Positions 52,908-63,884 of a stretch of DNA of 64,000 nt are shown piece by piece. Origin of the DNA: Vicinamibacterales bacterium (lineage in GTDB: Bacteria; Acidobacteriota; Vicinamibacteria; Vicinamibacterales; UBA2999); the NCBI GenBank assembly GCA_050249615.1, contig JBFWQE010000001.1, positions 35,483 to 99,482 on the forward strand, written 5' to 3'. A program made the position numbers and the translations under genes. The notes beneath the pieces are model-generated. The model was not told where the DNA came from and did no database searches. It worked only from the letters and a program-made list of their open reading frames with translations. Position 1 is the stretch's first letter, and every line of letters starts with the position of its first letter.

Positions 52908-52954
52908 ACCGTTTCGCCTTTTGCCTTCTGCCTTCTGTCGTGTCCTGGCCGGGC
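52908..52954. repeat. Period-7 tandem array (TGCCTTC-type) filling the rplR-rpsE spacer
   Basis: accgttt cgccttt tgccttc tgccttc tgtcgtg tcctggc cgggc. It runs from the rpsE start codon to the rplR stop codon. Confidence 0.6.
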
Positions 52955-53329
52955 CTAGAACTCCAGCCCGGCGCTGCGCGCGGCCTCGGCCACGGCGCGC
53001 ACGCGCCCGTGGTACAGGAACCCGTTCCGGTCGAACACCACGCGCGTGATGCCCTTCTCCTTCAGGCGCTCGGCAATCGCCTGGCCCACCACCGCGGCGC
53101 CCCTGCGGTTGCTGCCGCGGGCGCCCTCCGCCAGGCGCGCCTTCAGCGCCGGTTCCACGCTCGACGCGGCTGCCAGCGTCCGTCCGGCCAGGTCGTCGAT
53201 GACCTGCACGTAGATGTGCGCGCCGCTCCGGAACACGCTCAGGCGCGGCTGCTCGGCGGTCCCCTGCAGGCGCTTCCGGATCCGGAACTTGATCCGATCC
53301 CGGCGGTCTTCCTTCGTCTGGATTCTCAT
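52955..53329 (-). CDS. rplR: 50S ribosomal protein L18
   Basis: ...[19 protein letters not shown]...[27 protein letters not shown]. Confidence 0.97.
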
Positions 53330-53348
53330 ACGCTCACCAGTTGCTCGA

Positions 53349-53885
53349 TTACGCGCCGGTCTTGCCGGCCTTCTTCTTCAGCACTTCGCCCGTGTAGCGC
53401 ACGCCCTTCTGCTGGTACGGGTCGGGCTTGCGCAGGCGCCGCAGGTTCGCCGCCACCTGGCCCACCAGCTGGCGATCCACGCCCGTGACGGTGATGTGGG
53501 TCTGCTTGTCGATGGCGACGTCGATGCCCGCGGGCACGTCGAACACCACCGGGTGCGAGTAGCCGAGCGCCAGCACGATCTGCTTGCCCTTCATCTCGGC
53601 GCGATAGCCCACGCCGACGATGTCCAGCTCCCTCTTCCAGCCCTCGGTCACGCCGAGCACGGCGTTGTTCACGAGGCTGCGGGCGAGGCCGTGGAACTTG
53701 TCGTACTCGCGCACATCGGCCGCCTTCCGGGTGAGCAGCTGGCCGTCCTCGACGACCGCGGTCACGCCCGGGGGCAGCGCCTGCTTCATCTGGCCCTTCG
53801 GCCCCTTCACCTCGACGGTGCCGCCGTCGATCTTGACGGTGACCCCCTTCGGGATGGCGATTGGCTTCTTTCCGATTCTCGACAT
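53349..53885 (-). CDS. rplF: 50S ribosomal protein L6
   Basis: [31 protein letters not shown]. Confidence 0.97.
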
Positions 53886-53889
53886 GGCG

Positions 53890-54303
53890 TCACCAAACGT
53901 TGCAGAGGATCTCGCCGCCGACGCCGGCCTTCTGGGCGGCGCGCCCGGTCATGACGCCCCGCGACGTCGTGAGGATGTTCACGCCCAGGCCGCCGAGGAC
54001 CGGGGGCACGCCCTCGCGGCCGGCATAGACGCGGCGCCCGGGGCGGCTCACCCGCTCGAGGCCGGAGATCACCTTCTCTCCGGCGGGGCCGTACTTCAGG
54101 AACACGCGCATCACCTGGCGGGCGGCCTTGCCGGGCCGCTCGGAGGGCGCCTCGACGAGCTTGTAGCCCGCGATGTAGCCCTCGTCCTGCAGGATCTTCG
54201 CGATCTCGGTCTTCAGCTTGGACGCGGGCAGGTCCACGCGCGCGTGCCTGGCGTGCACGGCGTTGCGAATCCGCGTCAGCATGTCGGCAATCGGATCAGT
54301 CAT
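53890..54303 (-). CDS. rpsH: 30S ribosomal protein S8
   Basis: [15 protein letters not shown]...GGEILCNVW. Confidence 0.97.
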
Positions 54304-54337
54304 AGCTACTGCTCTCAGCTCTCGGCTAACTCTGGCT
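54304..54337. repeat. Period-7 degenerate array (GCTCTCA-type) filling the rpsZ-rpsH spacer
   Basis: agctact gctctca gctctcg gctaact ctggct. The unit is related to the CTCAGCT array at 59335. Confidence 0.5.
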
Positions 54338-54523
54338 CTACCAGCTGCTCTTGGTCACGCCGGCGACGTCGCCCGTCAGCGCCAGCTCGCGGAAGCAGAG
54401 CCGGCACATGCCGAACTTCCGGATGAACGCGCGGGACCGGCCGCACCGGCGGCACCGGTTGCGGTGGCGGACCTTGAACTTCAGCGTCTTCTTCTCGCGA
54501 GCCTTCTTGGCGGTCGTGGCCAC
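54338..54523 (-). CDS. rpsZ: 30S ribosomal protein S14 type Z (zinc-binding, 61 aa)
   Basis: [64 protein letters not shown] start with GAGAGGA about 8 nt upstream. Confidence 0.9.
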
Positions 54524-54537
54524 GGAAATGTCCTCTC

Positions 54538-60765: not shown

Positions 60766-61095
60766 TTACTTCCCGTGTTCCTTGCCGAACGCCTTGATCT
60801 CGACGTCCACGCCCGCGGGCAGGTCGAGCTTCATCAGCGCATCCACGGTCTGCGGCGTCGGCTCGAAGATGTCGATCAGGCGCTTGTGCGTCCGGATCTC
60901 GAACTGCTCGCGCGACTTCTTGTCCACGTGCGGCGAGCGCAGGACCGTCCACTTGTTGATCTCGGTCGGCAGCGGGATGGGCCCCGCCAGCCTGGCCCCG
61001 GTGCGCTTGGCCGTCTCGACGATCTCGCCCGTGCTCTGATCGAGCACGCGCGCGTCGTAGGCCTTCAAACGGATTCGAATCTTGTCGCCCAGCAT
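60766..61095 (-). CDS. rpsJ: 30S ribosomal protein S10
   Basis: [39 protein letters not shown]. Confidence 0.97.
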
Positions 61096-61103
61096 CTCTG
61101 ATC

Positions 61104-61138
61104 CTTGTCGGGAGTCGGGAGTCGGGAGTCGGGAGTCG
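61104..61138. repeat. Tandem 7-bp repeat GGAGTCG (4 perfect + 1 degenerate copy) upstream of rpsJ
   Basis: cttgtcg ggagtcg ggagtcg ggagtcg ggagtcg. GGG-AGTC-GGG-AGTC-GGG-AGTC-GGG spans 61110-61133. Confidence 0.95.
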
Positions 61139-61173
61139 GCTGACTCGTCGTGTCCCGCGACCGGCGCTCCCCG

Positions 61174-63285
61174 CTACTTCGTCCCCTGCACCCTCGCGAT
61201 GACTTCCTCGCTCACGTTGCTCGGCGCCTGCTCGTACCGATCGAAGTGCATCGAGTAGGTGGCGCGCCCCTGCGTGCGCGACCTGAGGTCGGTCGCGTAG
61301 CCGAACATCTCGCTGAGCGGCACCCGGGCCGAGATGATCTCGGTGCCGCCGCGGTTCTCCTGCGCCTGGATGCGGCCCCGGCGCGACGCCAGGTTGCCCA
61401 TCACGTCGCCCAGGTAGTCCTTCGGGCAGACCACTTCCACCCGCATGATGGGCTCCATCAGCACGGGCTTCGCCTTCTTCGCCGCGTCCTGGAACGCCAT
61501 CGACCCGGCAATCTTGAAGGCCATTTCCGACGAGTCGACCTCGTGGAACGACCCGTCGTAGAGCTCGATCCGCACGTCGTCGATCGGGTAGCCGGCGAGC
61601 ACCCCGCGCGTGAGCGCCTCCTGGATGCCCTGGTCGATCGGCTTGATGTACTCCTTGGGGATCGCGCCGCCCACGATCTCGTTCTCGAACTGGTAGCCCG
61701 TGCCAGGCGGCAGCGGGACCAGCCGAATCTTCGCCTCGCCGAACTGGCCGCGACCGCCCGTCTGGCGGACGAACCGCCCGTGCCCCTCGGCCGGCGCCGT
61801 GAGCGTCTCCTTGTAGGCCACCTGCGGCTTGCCCACCGTGGCCTCGACGCCGAACTCGCGCTTGAGGCGGTCCACGATGATCTCGAGGTGGAGCTCGCCC
61901 ATGCCGCGGATCACCACCTGGCCGGTCTGCTCGTCCGTCGCGACGCGGAAGGTGGGGTCCTCGCCCATCAGCTTGCTCATGCCCTGGCCCAGCTTCTCCT
62001 GGTCGGCCTTCGTCTTCGGCTCGATGGCGAGCGAGATAACCGGCTCGGGGAACTCCATGGACTCGAGCAGGACGGGCTTCTTGTCGTCGCAGAGGGTGTC
62101 GCCGGTCGTGACCGACTTGAGGCCCACGGCCGCGGCGATGTCGCCGGCATGGACCTCCTTGATCTCCTCGCGCTTGTTGGCGTGCATCTTGAGGAGACGG
62201 CCCACGCGCTCGGTCTTGCCCTTCGTGGAGTTGAGGACCGAGGACCCCGCGTTGAGCGTGCCGGAGTACACGCGGAAGAACGTGAGCTGGCCGACGAACG
62301 GGTCGGTCATGATCTTGAACGCCAGCGCCGCGAACGGCTCCTTGTCATCGGCCCGGCGCTCGATGAGGGCGTCCTCGTCCTTCGCATTCGGGTCGGTGCC
62401 CGTGACCGGCGGGATGTCGGTGGGCGACGGCAGGAAGTCCACCACCGCGTCGAGCATCGGCTGCACGCCCTTGTTCTTGAACGCCGACCCGCAGATGACG
62501 GGCACGAACGGCGCGTCCTCCTTACGGACCGACTCGATGACGCGCTTGCGGAGGGCGACCTTGATCTCGTCGATCGTGATGGCCTCGCCGCCCAGGTACT
62601 TCTCGAGCAGCTTGTCGTCGGCCTCGCTCACCTTCTCGATGAGCTTCTCGCGGTAGGCCTGCGCCTCGGCCATCATGTCGGCCGGGATCTCGCCGACGAT
62701 GTAGTCGGCGCCCATCGTCTCGTCCTTGTAGGTGAGCGACCGCATGCCGATGAGGTCCACCACGCCCTTGAACTTGTCCTCGGCGCCGATGGGCAGCTGG
62801 ATGGCGACGGGGTTGCCCTGCAGCTTCGACTCGATCTGGGAGAGGCACGCCTTGAAGTCGGCCCCGATGCGGTCCATCTTGTTCACGAAGCAGACGCGCG
62901 GGACGCGGTACTTGTCGGCCTGACGCCACACCGTCTCGGACTGCGGCTCCACACCAGACACCGCGTCGAACACCGCCACGGCGCCGTCGAGCACGCGCAG
63001 CGAGCGTTCGACCTCGACCGTGAAGTCCACGTGGCCCGGCGTGTCGATGATGTTGATCCGGTGATCGCGCCAGAAGCACGTGGTCGCCGCCGACGTGATC
63101 GTGATGCCACGCTCCTGCTCCTGCTCCATCCAGTCCATCACCGCGGTGCCTTCGTGCACCTCGCCGATCTTGTAGGTGATGCCGGTATAGAACAGGATGC
63201 GCTCGGTCGTGGTCGTCTTGCCGGCATCGATGTGGGCCATGATGCCGATGTTGCGCGTCCGTTCGAGTGGAGCTTGGCGAGCCAT
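61174..63285 (-). CDS. fusA: Elongation factor G (canonical)
   Basis: [27 protein letters not shown], and the full five-domain sequence. Located in the str-operon position after rpsG. Confidence 0.97.
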
Positions 63286-63358
63286 GTGCGTCAGTTCAAC
63301 GAGACAGGGTCAACGTTCGGAGTTCAAGAGTTCAAAGTCCAGCGCTCGAAGCGACGCG

Positions 63359-63832
63359 CTACCAGCGGTAGTGCGCGAAGGCCTTGTTGGCCTCGGCCAT
63401 CCGGTGCGTGTCCTCGCGCTTCTTCACGGCGCCGCCGCGGAGGTTGGCCGCGTCGAGCAGCTCGTTGGCCAGCTTCTCCTGCATCGTCTTGCCGTCGCCG
63501 CGCGACCGCGCGTAGCTGACCAGCCAGCGGATGCTGAGCGAGAGCCGGCGGTTCGGGTTCACCTCGATGGGCACCTGGTAGTTCGAGCCGCCCACGCGCC
63601 GCGACTTCACCTCGAGGGCCGGCTTCACGTTGTCCACGGCCTTCTTGAAGATCTTCAGCGGGTCGTCGCCCGAGCGCTCCTTGATGATGTCGAAGCTCTG
63701 ATAGAGGATGCGCTCCGCCGTCGAGCGGCGCCCCTCCAGCATGATGGTGTTGATGAACTTCGTCACCAGCGGGCTCCCGTAGAGGGCGTCCGGGGGCAGT
63801 TCACGCTTCGCGATTTCTCGTCTACGCGGCAT
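63359..63832 (-). CDS. rpsG: 30S ribosomal protein S7
   Basis: [28 protein letters not shown]...AFAHYRW. Confidence 0.97.
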
Positions 63833-63840
63833 ACAGAAGA

Positions 63841-63884
63841 TCCTGAGGTCTTGGGTCCTGGGTCCTGGGTCTTGGGGCCTGGGG
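63841..63884. repeat. Tandem 7-bp repeat GTC(C/T)TGG, about 6 copies, between the rpsL stop and the rpsG start
   Basis: tcctgag gtcttgg gtcctgg gtcctgg gtcttgg ggcctgg gg. Five G3-4 runs span 63853-63884, and the array ends at the rpsL stop codon. Confidence 0.9.

What the first reader, a model, noticed from the sequence alone, without database searches (positions are those of the whole stretch)
52908..63884. Short tandem-repeat arrays (mostly period 7) fill seven of the long spacers inside the str/S10/spc ribosomal-protein operons
Seen directly in the sequence.

Most gene junctions in this r-protein block are 2-20 nt or 4-nt overlaps. Seven junctions are 34-82 nt long. Each of these is occupied, often from stop codon to start codon, by head-to-tail copies of a short unit:
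- rpsL|rpsG: GTC(C/T)TGG, about 6 copies (63841-63884).
- fusA|rpsJ: GGAGTCG, 4-5 copies (61104-61138).
- rplC|rplD: three CATCTGCGY 9-mers (60045-60071).
- rplD|rplW: CTCAGCT-type, 5 copies, exactly the whole 35-nt spacer (59335-59369).
- rplB|rpsS: ATCAGGG, 5-6 copies (58166-58207).
- rpsZ|rpsH: GCTCTCA-type (54304-54337).
- rplR|rpsE: TGCCTTC-type (52908-52954).

The unit sequences differ between spacers, but the period and architecture recur. This looks like a recurrent process or constraint rather than one dispersed element.

The following are inference only. In mRNA sense several arrays are C-rich and G-poor, which is rut-like and suggests Rho loading. Others could act as protein or RNA binding platforms, as translational uncoupling spacers, or as slippage-generated VNTRs. 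I do not know of a described function for such arrays inside r-protein operons.
Basis: partly seen in the sequence, partly recalled or inferred. Interest (0 to 1): 0.7.

Follow-up and report, generated by a model that had tools for sequence, protein, structure and literature searches.

The report
Heptamer repeat arrays between ribosomal-protein genes
The short 7-base tandem repeats between ribosomal-protein genes are real and belong to a repeat class common across Acidobacteriota that I found described only in other phyla; they look like tolerated repeat DNA shaped by translation signals, not Rho or terminator sites.

Summary
The arrays are real. Five of the seven listed spacers are significantly period-7 (dinucleotide shuffles, p<=0.0035). 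rplC|rplD is borderline (9-mers) and rpsZ|rpsH is not significant alone. They are not specific to r-protein operons: the window holds four more period 7-9 arrays, all intergenic.

The window is an Acidobacteriota (Vicinamibacterales-like) genome. In 80 r-protein loci from many phyla, 82/331 long spacers in Acidobacteriota carry period-7 arrays, against 4/307 elsewhere. Period 7 dominates.

In relatives the arrays are often paired into ~80-120-nt palindromes that run from the stop codon to the ribosome-binding site. Unit families recur across sites and classes. Most close relatives have 0-10 nt at the same junctions, so the arrays are lineage-specific gains. Same-species contigs (99.9% identical) show no copy-number change.

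Nothing supports Rho loading, terminators, promoters or Rfam RNAs.

Best reading: DNA-level heptamer repeat elements (STRR/REP-like), filtered by translation. The start-proximal AGCTRAG arrays are phase-locked to the start codon and SD-like.

Known kind; new phylum and operon-internal variant.

The parts
63841..63884 (-). rpsL|rpsG array. mRNA sense: CCCCAGG CCCCAAG ACCCAGG ACCCAGG ACCCAAG ACCTCAGGA. It starts directly after the rpsL TAG stop (63885-63887). It is followed by TCTTCTGT and the rpsG ATG (63832).
   Evidence: TRF p7 x6.0. Shuffle p<=0.0005. C/G 2.0, MFE/nt -0.13. Unit CCCCAAG also at 10705-10725.
61104..61139 (-). fusA|rpsJ array, (GACTCCC)x4-5, followed by GACAAGGATCAGAG-ATG (SD-like AAGGA). 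The upstream 35 nt (61140-61173) is a degenerate G-rich complement (GGGGAGCG..CGGGAC..GAGTC). The spacer therefore looks like a decayed hairpin.
   Evidence: TRF p7 x4.7, 100% match. p<=0.0005. Predicted partial pairing with the upstream arm, -31.7 kcal/mol, z 0.98. 64% of the array is paired upstream in the MFE structure.
60045..60071 (-). rplC|rplD: three imperfect 9-mers (CAGATGGCG CCGATGACG CAGATGAGG). They belong to the same 9-mer family as the 43099-43185 array.
   Evidence: TRF p9 x2.4, score 30. p=0.014. 1-mismatch matches to CGCAGATGG at 60044 and 60062, same strand, 18 nt apart.
59335..59355 (-). rplD|rplW array, GCTGAAA GCTGAGA GCTGAG, abutting the rplW ATG. It belongs to the AGCTRAG family shared with Terriglobia and with Vicinamibacterales contig L089 at the same junction.
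   Evidence: TRF p7 x3.0. p=0.0035. Last AGCT at -7 from the ATG. L089 rplD|rplW reads TAGCTGAGGGCTGAAAGCTTTTT.
58166..58204 (-). rplB|rpsS array, (GATCCCT)x4 + GAGACCT + GAT, directly before the rpsS ATG. The unit equals the 3'-arm unit (CCTGATC/CCTGAGG) of the palindromic CAGG-family elements of relative L001.
   Evidence: TRF p7 x5.4. p<=0.0005. Mostly unpaired, MFE/nt -0.14. Twelve Vicinamibacterales relatives have 0-10 nt at this junction.
54304..54337 (-). rpsZ|rpsH spacer, AGCCAGAGTTAGCCGAGAGCTGAGAGCAGTAGCT. It is a degenerate AGCTGAG-type array with two clear units.
   Evidence: Not called by TRF. p=0.20. Assigned to a family only by unit similarity.
52912..52938 (-). rplR|rpsE array, CAGAAGG CAGAAGG CAAAAGG CGAAA. 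It is purine-only apart from C. The unit GAAGGCA is also found in Terriglobia-like contig L124.
   Evidence: TRF p7 x3.1. p<=0.0005. MFE/nt -0.03. L124 rplC|rplD and rpsC|rplP carry GAAGGCA arrays.
2158..2220 (-). Same phenomenon outside the r-protein operons. An octamer array (ACCCGAGA)x8 runs from the smc TGA stop to the SD-like AAGAGG and the ATG of a DUF4097 gene.
   Evidence: TRF p8 x7.9. p<=0.0005. Sequence. Flanking genes.
10703..10726 (-). (CCCCAAG)x3.4 in the 3' region of proS, between its stop codon and a terminator-like hairpin.
   Evidence: TRF. p<=0.0005. Sequence. Family match to the rpsL|rpsG array.
43099..43185 (-). 9-mer array (CGCAGATGG/CGCAGATAA)x9 starting at the TAA stop of a 645-aa ORF. 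The stop-proximal units themselves carry in-phase TAA/TAG. An inverted partial copy lies at about 43013.
   Evidence: TRF p9 x9.2. Score 59 against shuffle mean 5.9. Sequence. Motif hits.
45215..45265 (-). Imperfect 8-mer array (GTTCTGAG) just after the rplQ stop, at the end of the alpha operon.
   Evidence: TRF p8 x5.0, 77% match. p=0.0095. rplQ identified.

Best explanation
The arrays are copies of a class of short-unit intergenic repeat DNA that is widespread in Acidobacteriota. Units are mostly 7 nt, sometimes 8 or 9.

The class is generated and spread at the DNA level. Likely routes are slipped-strand or hairpin-register slippage, which strongly favours 7-nt steps, plus duplication or dispersal of whole palindromic elements, as with REP/REPIN or MITE elements.

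New copies survive only where they do not damage expression. They therefore end up filling the space between an upstream stop codon and the downstream ribosome-binding site, including inside the str/S10/spc operons, where they are co-transcribed.

In this genome the copies are short (21-44 nt in the operons) and mostly single-armed. They are built from two or three bases, so the RNA is nearly structure-free. They act as passive linkers that replace stop/start abutment by a 35-80-nt gap while keeping a Shine-Dalgarno (SD) sequence.

Selection at the translation level shapes which units and orientations persist next to start codons. The AGCTRAG and GAAGGCA arrays are purine-rich and SD-like.

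Shown: periodicity, intergenic restriction, phylum distribution, gain relative to compact relatives, family sharing, geometry, stability among strains, and phase-locking of one family.

Inferred: the generating mechanism, and neutrality or near-neutrality.
For: 1. Period signature. In 1.82 Mb of r-protein loci there are 142 period-7 arrays, against 1-11 for each of periods 5, 6 and 8-11. In Acidobacteriota spacers the counts are p7=82, p8=12, others <=1.

2. Lineage property, not gene property. 82/331 spacers >=30 nt in Acidobacteriota carry a period-7 array, against 4/307 in other phyla (odds ratio 25, p=5e-21). The trait is patchy within the phylum: 18 of 29 loci.

3. Gains. At the junctions occupied in the window, most Vicinamibacterales relatives have 0-10 nt. 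Other relatives carry different units, or arrays at other junctions.

4. Not operon-specific. Four more arrays lie at smc|DUF4097, the proS 3' end, an ORF 3' end and the rplQ 3' end.

5. Dispersal. Four ~95-nt palindromic copies in L001 align, including their aperiodic centre. Units are shared between distant sites in the window.

6. DNA-type symmetry. In 45 hairpins the arms are 85% complementary, with no excess of G.U (38) over A.C (49) mismatches on the transcribed strand.

7. Constraint-limited geometry. Arrays start a median of 6 nt after the stop and end a median of 13 nt before the start. Stop codons and SD-like units form the terminal units.

8. Window arrays are structure-poor: MFE/nt 0 to -0.25, against -0.315+-0.098 for operon background. 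They have no significant fold.

9. No Rfam family. No sense-strand terminator or promoter.

10. The same kind of element has been described elsewhere: heptameric intergenic SSRs with inverted pairs in Xanthomonas and Nostoc (PMC4692102), and paired tandem hepta/octamers in Geobacter metallireducens (PMC2700814).
Against: Some unit families (AGCTRAG, GAAGGCA, GAATYAT) recur across classes of the phylum. The AGCTRAG arrays are held at the same junctions (upstream of rpsS, rplB, rplF and rplP) in many Terriglobia. Their last unit sits at -7 to -11 from the ATG, and single arms are 13:1 in sense orientation. That is more order than neutral repeat DNA predicts, and it suggests at least this family is used as a ribosome-binding module.

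No transposase or other generating enzyme was identified. Y1 (TIRYT) transposases in Acidobacteria are known only from the literature (PMC3733652), and no link to these repeats has been shown.

No copy-number change was seen among same-species contigs, so ongoing slippage has not been observed directly.

The preference for 7 nt remains unexplained.
Confidence: 0.5

Rival explanations
1. Functional translation-initiation elements. The start-proximal arrays are tandem SD-like or unstructured 'landing pads' (standby sites) for 30S subunits. Where a complementary 5' arm exists directly after the upstream stop codon, the hairpin sequesters the SD-like arm until a terminating ribosome melts its base. 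Translational coupling would then be kept across an 80-120-nt spacer.
For: - 72 spacers carry chains of at least 3 AGCT units. In 44 of the 56 start-proximal cases the last AGCT lies at -7 to -11, with the mode at -10 (phase chi-square p=8e-5). This gives RAGAGCTGAYTTT-ATG, with RAGAG at SD spacing.
- AGCTRAG single arms are 13 sense to 1 antisense, and the family is never a 5' arm in sense form.
- These arrays are conserved upstream of rpsS, rplB, rplF and rplP across many Terriglobia contigs.
- The geometry is flush with the stop codon and the ribosome-binding site.
- The window arrays are unusually unstructured for a 69% GC transcript.
- Heptamer repeats upstream of start codons have been proposed as translational regulators in Beggiatoaceae (PMC4679880) and Nostoc (bioRxiv 10.1101/2022.06.06.494920).
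Against: - Arrays also sit after the last gene of operons and between convergent genes, where there is no start codon to serve.
- Most close relatives do without them.
- The C-rich window arrays (GATCCCT, GACTCCC, ACCCAGG) are not SD-like, and each is followed by a separate SD.
- No G.U enrichment indicates selection for RNA stems.
- Phase-locking could arise without function if local slippage amplifies the heptamer that already contains the SD.
Confidence: 0.27
2. Non-autonomous mobile palindromes (REPIN/MITE-like) mobilised by a host transposase, for example the Acidobacteria-specific Y1 'TIRYT' group. On this view the single-armed arrays in the window are half-elements or decayed copies.
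For: - Dispersed, alignable ~95-nt palindromic copies occur at four junctions in L001, with an orthologous copy in L087.
- Each genome has its own unit families.
- 47 of 126 positive spacers are hairpins with both arms periodic.
- Acidobacteria encode a distinct clade of REP-type Y1 transposases (PMC3733652).
Against: - No transposase lies in the window or the loci.
- No target-site duplication or conserved terminal tag was identified.
- Arms made of tandem units, and many single arms with variable copy number, fit slippage better than cut-and-paste.
- Unit order differs between copies.
- This rival overlaps with the best explanation rather than excluding it.
Confidence: 0.15
3. Transcription-level signals inside the operons: Rho loading (rut) sites, attenuators or processing sites.
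For: Three operon arrays are C-rich and G-poor in mRNA sense (C/G 2.0-3.2) and unstructured.
Against: - These arrays are 36-44 nt, about half a typical rut site.
- Four of the seven arrays are G>C.
- In relatives the same elements are stable hairpins, which Rho cannot load on.
- No terminator-like site lies on the sense strand, and there is no Rfam hit.
- The arrays lie in short untranslated gaps of heavily translated mRNAs.
Confidence: 0.04
4. Hypervariable VNTR or contingency loci that tune r-protein expression by changing copy number.
For: The arrays are tandem and head-to-tail, and several are perfect.
Against: There are zero indels across all arrays in 15,785 nt shared with two same-species contigs (16 and 5 SNPs, all in coding DNA) and two short contigs. 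My estimate from these counts is that the length-change rate per array is below roughly 350 times the per-site substitution rate. That is far below known contingency loci.
Confidence: 0.03

Closest known systems
Over-represented intergenic heptanucleotide SSRs in bacteria (Mrazek et al. 2007, as summarised in PMC4679880 and PMC4692102). Examples: Xanthomonas GGGAATC and Nostoc GGGGAYT repeats (PMC4692102) and cyanobacterial STRR heptamers (Mazel 1990, cited there).
   Same: - 7-nt units in tandem arrays of about 3-8 copies.
- Strictly intergenic.
- Several unit variants per genome.
- Occasional inverted pairs able to form stem-loops.
- Turnover between related species.
- Function unknown.
- Several window arrays are (GGGN4)n on one strand, like the Xanthomonas G4-type repeats.
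   Different: - The phylum: I found no report for Acidobacteriota in the held literature.
- High density inside the str/S10/spc operons.
- Many unit families, not one G-rich family.
- One family is phase-locked to start codons.
Paired tandem hepta/octanucleotide elements of Geobacter metallireducens, annotated as putative global regulator binding sites (classes with GTTGCTYN x4 and MTYCTGA x5) and as GGACCGG x4 elements (PMC2700814).
   Same: Four to five tandem 7-8-nt units, arranged mostly as inverted pairs on opposite strands. Tens of copies per genome, between genes.
   Different: In Geobacter they were interpreted as DNA binding sites 5' of operons. Here the arrays are intercistronic and co-transcribed. 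No regulator is known in either case.
TAACTGA direct repeats upstream of start codons in marine Beggiatoaceae, cyanobacteria and some Bacteroidetes (PMC4679880).
   Same: Heptamer direct repeats of 2-6 copies lying directly upstream of start codons, in genomes where a role in translation has been proposed. Relatives have shorter repeat-free spacers.
   Different: That case has a single conserved unit. Here there are many units, frequent palindromic pairing, and canonical SDs are usually present in the window.
REP/BIME/REPIN elements, and co-transcribed intercistronic MITEs such as Neisseria Correia elements and enterobacterial ERIC (my own knowledge; REP/RAYT background from PMC3733652).
   Same: ~80-120-nt imperfect palindromes in extragenic space, including inside operons. 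Genome-specific families with dispersed copies. They are expected to form mRNA hairpins.
   Different: The arms are tandem heptamers rather than a unique 20-40-nt palindrome. No GTAG/CGTC tag, target duplication or linked transposase has been shown. The window copies are mostly single-armed and unstructured.

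Membership tests
Intergenic heptameric SSR class (STRR-like) | Head-to-tail repeats of a 7-nt unit, beyond chance | tested here: met
   TRF. Shuffle p<=0.0035 for five operon spacers.
Intergenic heptameric SSR class (STRR-like) | Restricted to non-coding DNA, with period 7 favoured over neighbouring periods | tested here: met
   All p7/p8 arrays in the window are intergenic. p7=142 against <=11 for each other period in 1.82 Mb. In Acidobacteriota spacers p7=82 and p8=12.
Intergenic heptameric SSR class (STRR-like) | The same unit reused at several loci of one genome | tested here: met
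   CCCCAAG at two loci. The 9-mer at two loci. Multi-locus families in L001 and L002.
Contingency-locus VNTR | Copy-number polymorphism among closely related strains | tested here: not met
   No indel in 15,785 nt against L081 and L082, nor in L083 or L084. The sample is small (3-4 genomes).
REP / REPIN | Imperfect palindrome forming a stem-loop | tested here: not met
   Window spacers have fold z-scores of -1.4 to +1.8, and the arrays are mostly unpaired. The feature is met in relatives L001 and L002.
REP / REPIN | Conserved GTAG/CGTC tag and a linked RAYT (Y1 transposase) | not testable with these tools
   The ten flanking proteins scanned against Pfam include no transposase. The rest of the genome is not available. 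The window units carry no consistent tag.
Rho utilisation (rut) site | About 60-80 nt or more of C-rich, G-poor, unstructured, untranslated RNA | tested here: not met
   Three arrays are C-rich but only 36-44 nt. Four are G>C. Relatives carry hairpins.
Intrinsic terminator / promoter | GC hairpin plus U tract, or -35/-10 hexamers, on the sense strand at the arrays | tested here: not met
   No promoter-like sites. The four terminator-like sites are all on the antisense (+) strand, fewer than in shuffles.
Known r-protein leader or other Rfam RNA | Match to a curated covariance model at its gathering score | tested here: not met
   0 hits in the window. In 8 related loci the only hits are two Acido-Lenti-1 matches, away from the arrays.
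G-quadruplex-forming repeat (Xanthomonas GGGAATC type) | At least 4 runs of G3+ separated by short loops on one strand | tested here: inconclusive
   At sequence level the feature is met on the template strand for the rpsL|rpsG (5 runs), fusA|rpsJ (4) and rplB|rpsS (4) arrays and for the 2158 array (6). It is not met for the other arrays. Folding was not tested.

The most novel reading that the evidence does not exclude
Acidobacteriota may have replaced stop/start overlap in r-protein operons by a repeat-built coupling device. A phase-locked tandem array of SD-like heptamers, (AGCURAG)n and similar, sits next to the start codon. An anti-SD-like complementary array sits directly after the upstream stop codon. 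Together they form a hairpin that brings stop and start together and is opened by the terminating ribosome. The single-armed, structure-free arrays in this window would be the minimal 'landing-pad' form.
Probability: 0.15. Interest if true: 0.75.

Novelty: new variant of a known kind. Interest (0 to 1): 0.55.

Why it matters
Ribosomal-protein operons are among the most compact and conserved gene arrays in bacteria, and their tight junctions are thought to underlie translational coupling and autogenous control.

In a whole phylum of abundant soil bacteria these junctions are repeatedly expanded. Spacers in the cluster total up to about 3.5 kb in some loci, against a few hundred nt in many other loci. 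Mean spacer length is 66 nt in Acidobacteriota and 30 nt elsewhere. So the operons either tolerate much looser spacing than assumed, or these bacteria use repeat-built spacers as part of initiation or coupling.

The data also give a clean natural data set for the long-standing puzzle of why 7-nt units dominate bacterial SSRs: many independent gains, a sharp period preference, and known flanks.

Practically, the arrays are a source of assembly breaks and gene-start miscalls in acidobacterial MAGs.

Tried and rejected
1. Sense versus antisense RNA folding energy, as a test for RNA-level selection. Sense is more stable by about 3 kcal/mol, but array-free spacers show the same asymmetry, so the test is uninformative.

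2. G.U versus A.C mismatch counts in 45 hairpins. No bias (38 vs 49, p=0.28), so there is no evidence that stems are maintained in RNA.

3. Fold z-scores of the window spacers: none significant.

4. Rfam: no hit in the window. Only unrelated Acido-Lenti-1 hits in relatives.

5. Promoter and terminator scan: nothing on the sense strand.

6. Search for relatives at intermediate divergence, to see arrays being born or changing copy number. Genome and metagenome scans gave only >=99.9% or <=86% rplB identity.

7. Density inside versus outside the operon across loci. Too little flanking DNA per locus to be informative.

8. Literature search for a prior description in Acidobacteria: none found in the held library. 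Mrazek 2007 itself is not held.

9. Chance or low complexity: rejected by shuffles and by the comparison between phyla.

10. Assembly artefact: rejected, because four independent assemblies are identical and both short-read and long-read MAGs show arrays (titles).

Full report
**What is in the window.** The window is about 69% G+C. It carries the str/S10/spc/alpha ribosomal-protein cluster on the minus strand from about 45.2 kb to the window end.

Most are 2-19 nt or 4-nt overlaps. Nine are 32-78 nt (rplC|rplD is 61 or 82 nt depending on the start codon chosen).

TRF finds period-7 arrays in rpsL|rpsG, fusA|rpsJ, rplD|rplW, rplB|rpsS and rplR|rpsE. It finds a weak period-9 array in rplC|rplD and nothing in rpsZ|rpsH.

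I scored each spacer with a self-match score against 2000 dinucleotide-preserving shuffles:
- Four spacers give p<=0.0005.
- rplD|rplW gives 0.0035.
- rplC|rplD gives 0.014.
- rpsZ|rpsH gives 0.20.

The observation therefore holds for five spacers, is borderline for one and weak for one. rplD|rplW has three units, not five.

**Not an r-protein peculiarity.** The window has four more arrays of the same build:
- (ACCCGAGA)x8, from the smc stop codon to the SD of the next gene
- (CCCCAAG)x3, between the proS stop and a terminator-like hairpin
- a 9-mer x9 that begins at the stop codon of a 645-aa ORF
- an 8-mer array after rplQ

A scan of the whole window found that every period-7 or period-8 array is intergenic. 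Coding DNA holds only period 6, 9 or 12 repeats.

Units recur at distant sites. CCCCAAG occurs at 63864 and 10705 (0 of 100 shuffles reach the count). The 9-mer CGCAGATGG occurs at 43099 and, with one mismatch each, twice in the rplC|rplD spacer, in register.

**Whose genome, and what relatives show.** The best rplB matches are Vicinamibacterales/Acidobacteriota MAGs at 84%, 81% and 76% identity.

Two same-species contigs and two short ones are 99.9-100% identical over up to 15,785 nt. They have 16, 5, 2 and 0 substitutions, all in coding DNA, and no indel. The arrays are therefore genuine and are not hypervariable.

In the 84% and 81% relatives (L001, L002) nearly every junction of the cluster is occupied. 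There the arrays are usually paired. A run of units lies directly after the stop codon, followed by a short loop, then a run of reverse-complement units that ends just before an AAGGA-type SD.

The junctions occupied differ between genomes, and so do the units. The 76% relative L003 has none. Among 19 further Vicinamibacterales contigs, most have 0-10 nt at the junctions occupied in the window. One contig (L089) shares an AGCTGAR array at rplD|rplW. The arrays are thus lineage-specific gains in an ancestrally compact cluster.

**A phylum-level trait.** I scanned all 164 r-protein loci fetched (1.82 Mb, many phyla). This gave 142 period-7 arrays, against 1-11 for each of periods 5, 6 and 8-11. 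Almost all lay in Acidobacteriota loci: Vicinamibacteria, Terriglobia and Thermoanaerobaculia.

Using the 80 genome loci with named taxa, 82 of 331 spacers >=30 nt in Acidobacteriota carry a period-7 array, against 4 of 307 elsewhere (odds ratio 25, p=5e-21). Eighteen of 29 acidobacterial loci have at least one.

Unit families are shared across classes:
- AGCTGAG/AGCTAAG: window rplD|rplW and rpsZ|rpsH, and many Terriglobia
- GAAGGCA: window rplR|rpsE, and L124
- GAATYAT
- C-rich CCCCACA/CCCGACA in L067, resembling the window's CCCCAAG and GACTCCC

**Anatomy across 126 positive spacers.** Arrays begin a median of 6 nt after the upstream stop and end a median of 13 nt before the start codon. 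Of the 126, 47 are hairpins with both arms periodic, 39 have one periodic arm paired to aperiodic sequence, and 40 are unpaired.

Families have a fixed polarity, and AGCTRAG single arms are 13 sense to 1 antisense.

In 45 hairpins the arms are 85% complementary. G.U mismatches (38) are not enriched over A.C (49) on the transcribed strand, so nothing indicates that the stems are maintained as RNA.

Four copies of a ~95-nt palindromic element in L001 align along their whole length, including the aperiodic centre. These copies therefore spread as units.

For the AGCT family, 72 spacers have chains of at least three units. In 44 of the 56 start-proximal cases the last AGCT lies at -7 to -11 from the ATG, with the mode at -10 (phase chi-square p=8e-5). 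The result is a recurrent RAGAGCTGAYTTT-ATG module, with RAGAG at SD spacing.

**Properties of the window copies.** In mRNA sense:
- Three operon arrays are C-rich (C/G 2.0-3.2).
- Four are G>C (C/G 0.4-0.8).
- All are A-rich and mostly U-poor.
- Predicted structure is weak: MFE/nt 0 to -0.25, against -0.315+-0.098 for 45-nt windows of the same operons.
- Fold z-scores are not significant.

fusA|rpsJ looks like a decayed hairpin, with a degenerate G-rich 5' arm. Each C-rich array is followed by its own SD-like sequence. There is no Rfam hit and no sense-strand terminator or promoter.

**Interpretation.** The sharp period preference, the phylum-wide but patchy distribution, the gains at otherwise abutting junctions, the presence in 3' regions and between convergent genes, the dispersal of whole palindromic copies, and the lack of an RNA-stem signature all point the same way. 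They indicate a DNA-level repeat class whose copies are filtered by what expression tolerates, hence the flush fit between stop codon and ribosome-binding site. Slippage in 7-nt steps, probably aided by hairpin register shifts and by duplication of elements, is the likely generator.

The strongest evidence that something more is going on is the order seen next to start codons: orientation bias, SD-like units, phase-locking, and conservation of AGCTRAG arrays upstream of particular genes in Terriglobia. It fits a role as ribosome-binding or standby sequence and, with the complementary arm after the stop codon, a coupling hairpin. It could also arise if slippage simply amplifies the heptamer that already contains the SD.

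The Rho/rut, terminator and hypervariable-VNTR readings are not supported.

**Relation to what is known.** Over-representation of heptanucleotide SSRs in bacterial intergenic DNA has been described (Mrazek 2007, as summarised in PMC4679880 and PMC4692102). So have specific cases:
- Xanthomonas GGGAATC and Nostoc GGGGAYT, including inverted pairs (PMC4692102)
- TAACTGA repeats before start codons (PMC4679880)
- paired tandem hepta/octamers in Geobacter metallireducens (PMC2700814)
- Nostoc heptamers affecting expression (bioRxiv 10.1101/2022.06.06.494920)

Function is unresolved in all of them. I found no description for Acidobacteriota in the held literature. That phylum is reported to have its own clade of REP-type Y1 transposases (PMC3733652), which is a lead I could not test.

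I therefore file the finding as a new variant of a known kind. The repeat class is the same. What is new is the phylum, the saturation of r-protein operon junctions, and one family phase-locked to start codons.

Noticed in passing
L002:5475-5592, 7760-7866, 12387-12549, 13167-13265: A separate ~100-nt dispersed repeat occupies four r-protein junctions of relative L002. It reads GCGCCTGCGGCCATGCC..CAGCGTAAGTTCGCGCCGGGGGTGGGGCCCCGGCGCCAGTGGAAAAAAG and ends in a GC hairpin plus an A-run. It is not heptameric.
   Followed up: no
L001:9381-9584: A 34-nt unit repeated 6 times (97% match) fills the rplD|rplW spacer of relative L001. The window has a heptamer array at this junction.
   Followed up: no
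L010, L024, L036, L116, L105, L026, L022: rplB|rpsS spacers (also L116 rpsC|rplP): A conserved small hairpin motif, GCAGATTCCTC-(stem-loop)-CGGAATGACAAG, recurs in Terriglobia between the 5' GTCGTTG array and the 3' AGCTRAG array. It could be another dispersed element or a regulatory RNA.
   Followed up: no
window 40878-42971 (+) and 43182-45119 (-): A second EF-G paralogue lies convergent with a 645-aa ORF that has no Pfam match. The ORF's TAA stop is the first unit of the 9-mer array, and the next units carry in-phase TAA/TAG.
   Followed up: partly
window 61096-61173 vs L001:6229-7605: tuf is absent between fusA and rpsJ in the window and in L002. It is present there in L001 and L093.
   Followed up: no
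window 10633-10702: A GC-rich hairpin (GGGCGGGCTCCCTCACGGGGCCCGCCC) with a T-run on the + strand and an A-run on the other side lies between the convergent OmpA-family gene and proS, next to the CCCCAAG array. It is probably a bidirectional intrinsic terminator.
   Followed up: no
L036:732-777 (-), L008:816-861 (-): Acido-Lenti-1 RNA (RF01687) matches well above gathering score, upstream of the r-protein cluster in two Terriglobia relatives. They are unrelated to the arrays.
   Followed up: partly
   Followed up: partly
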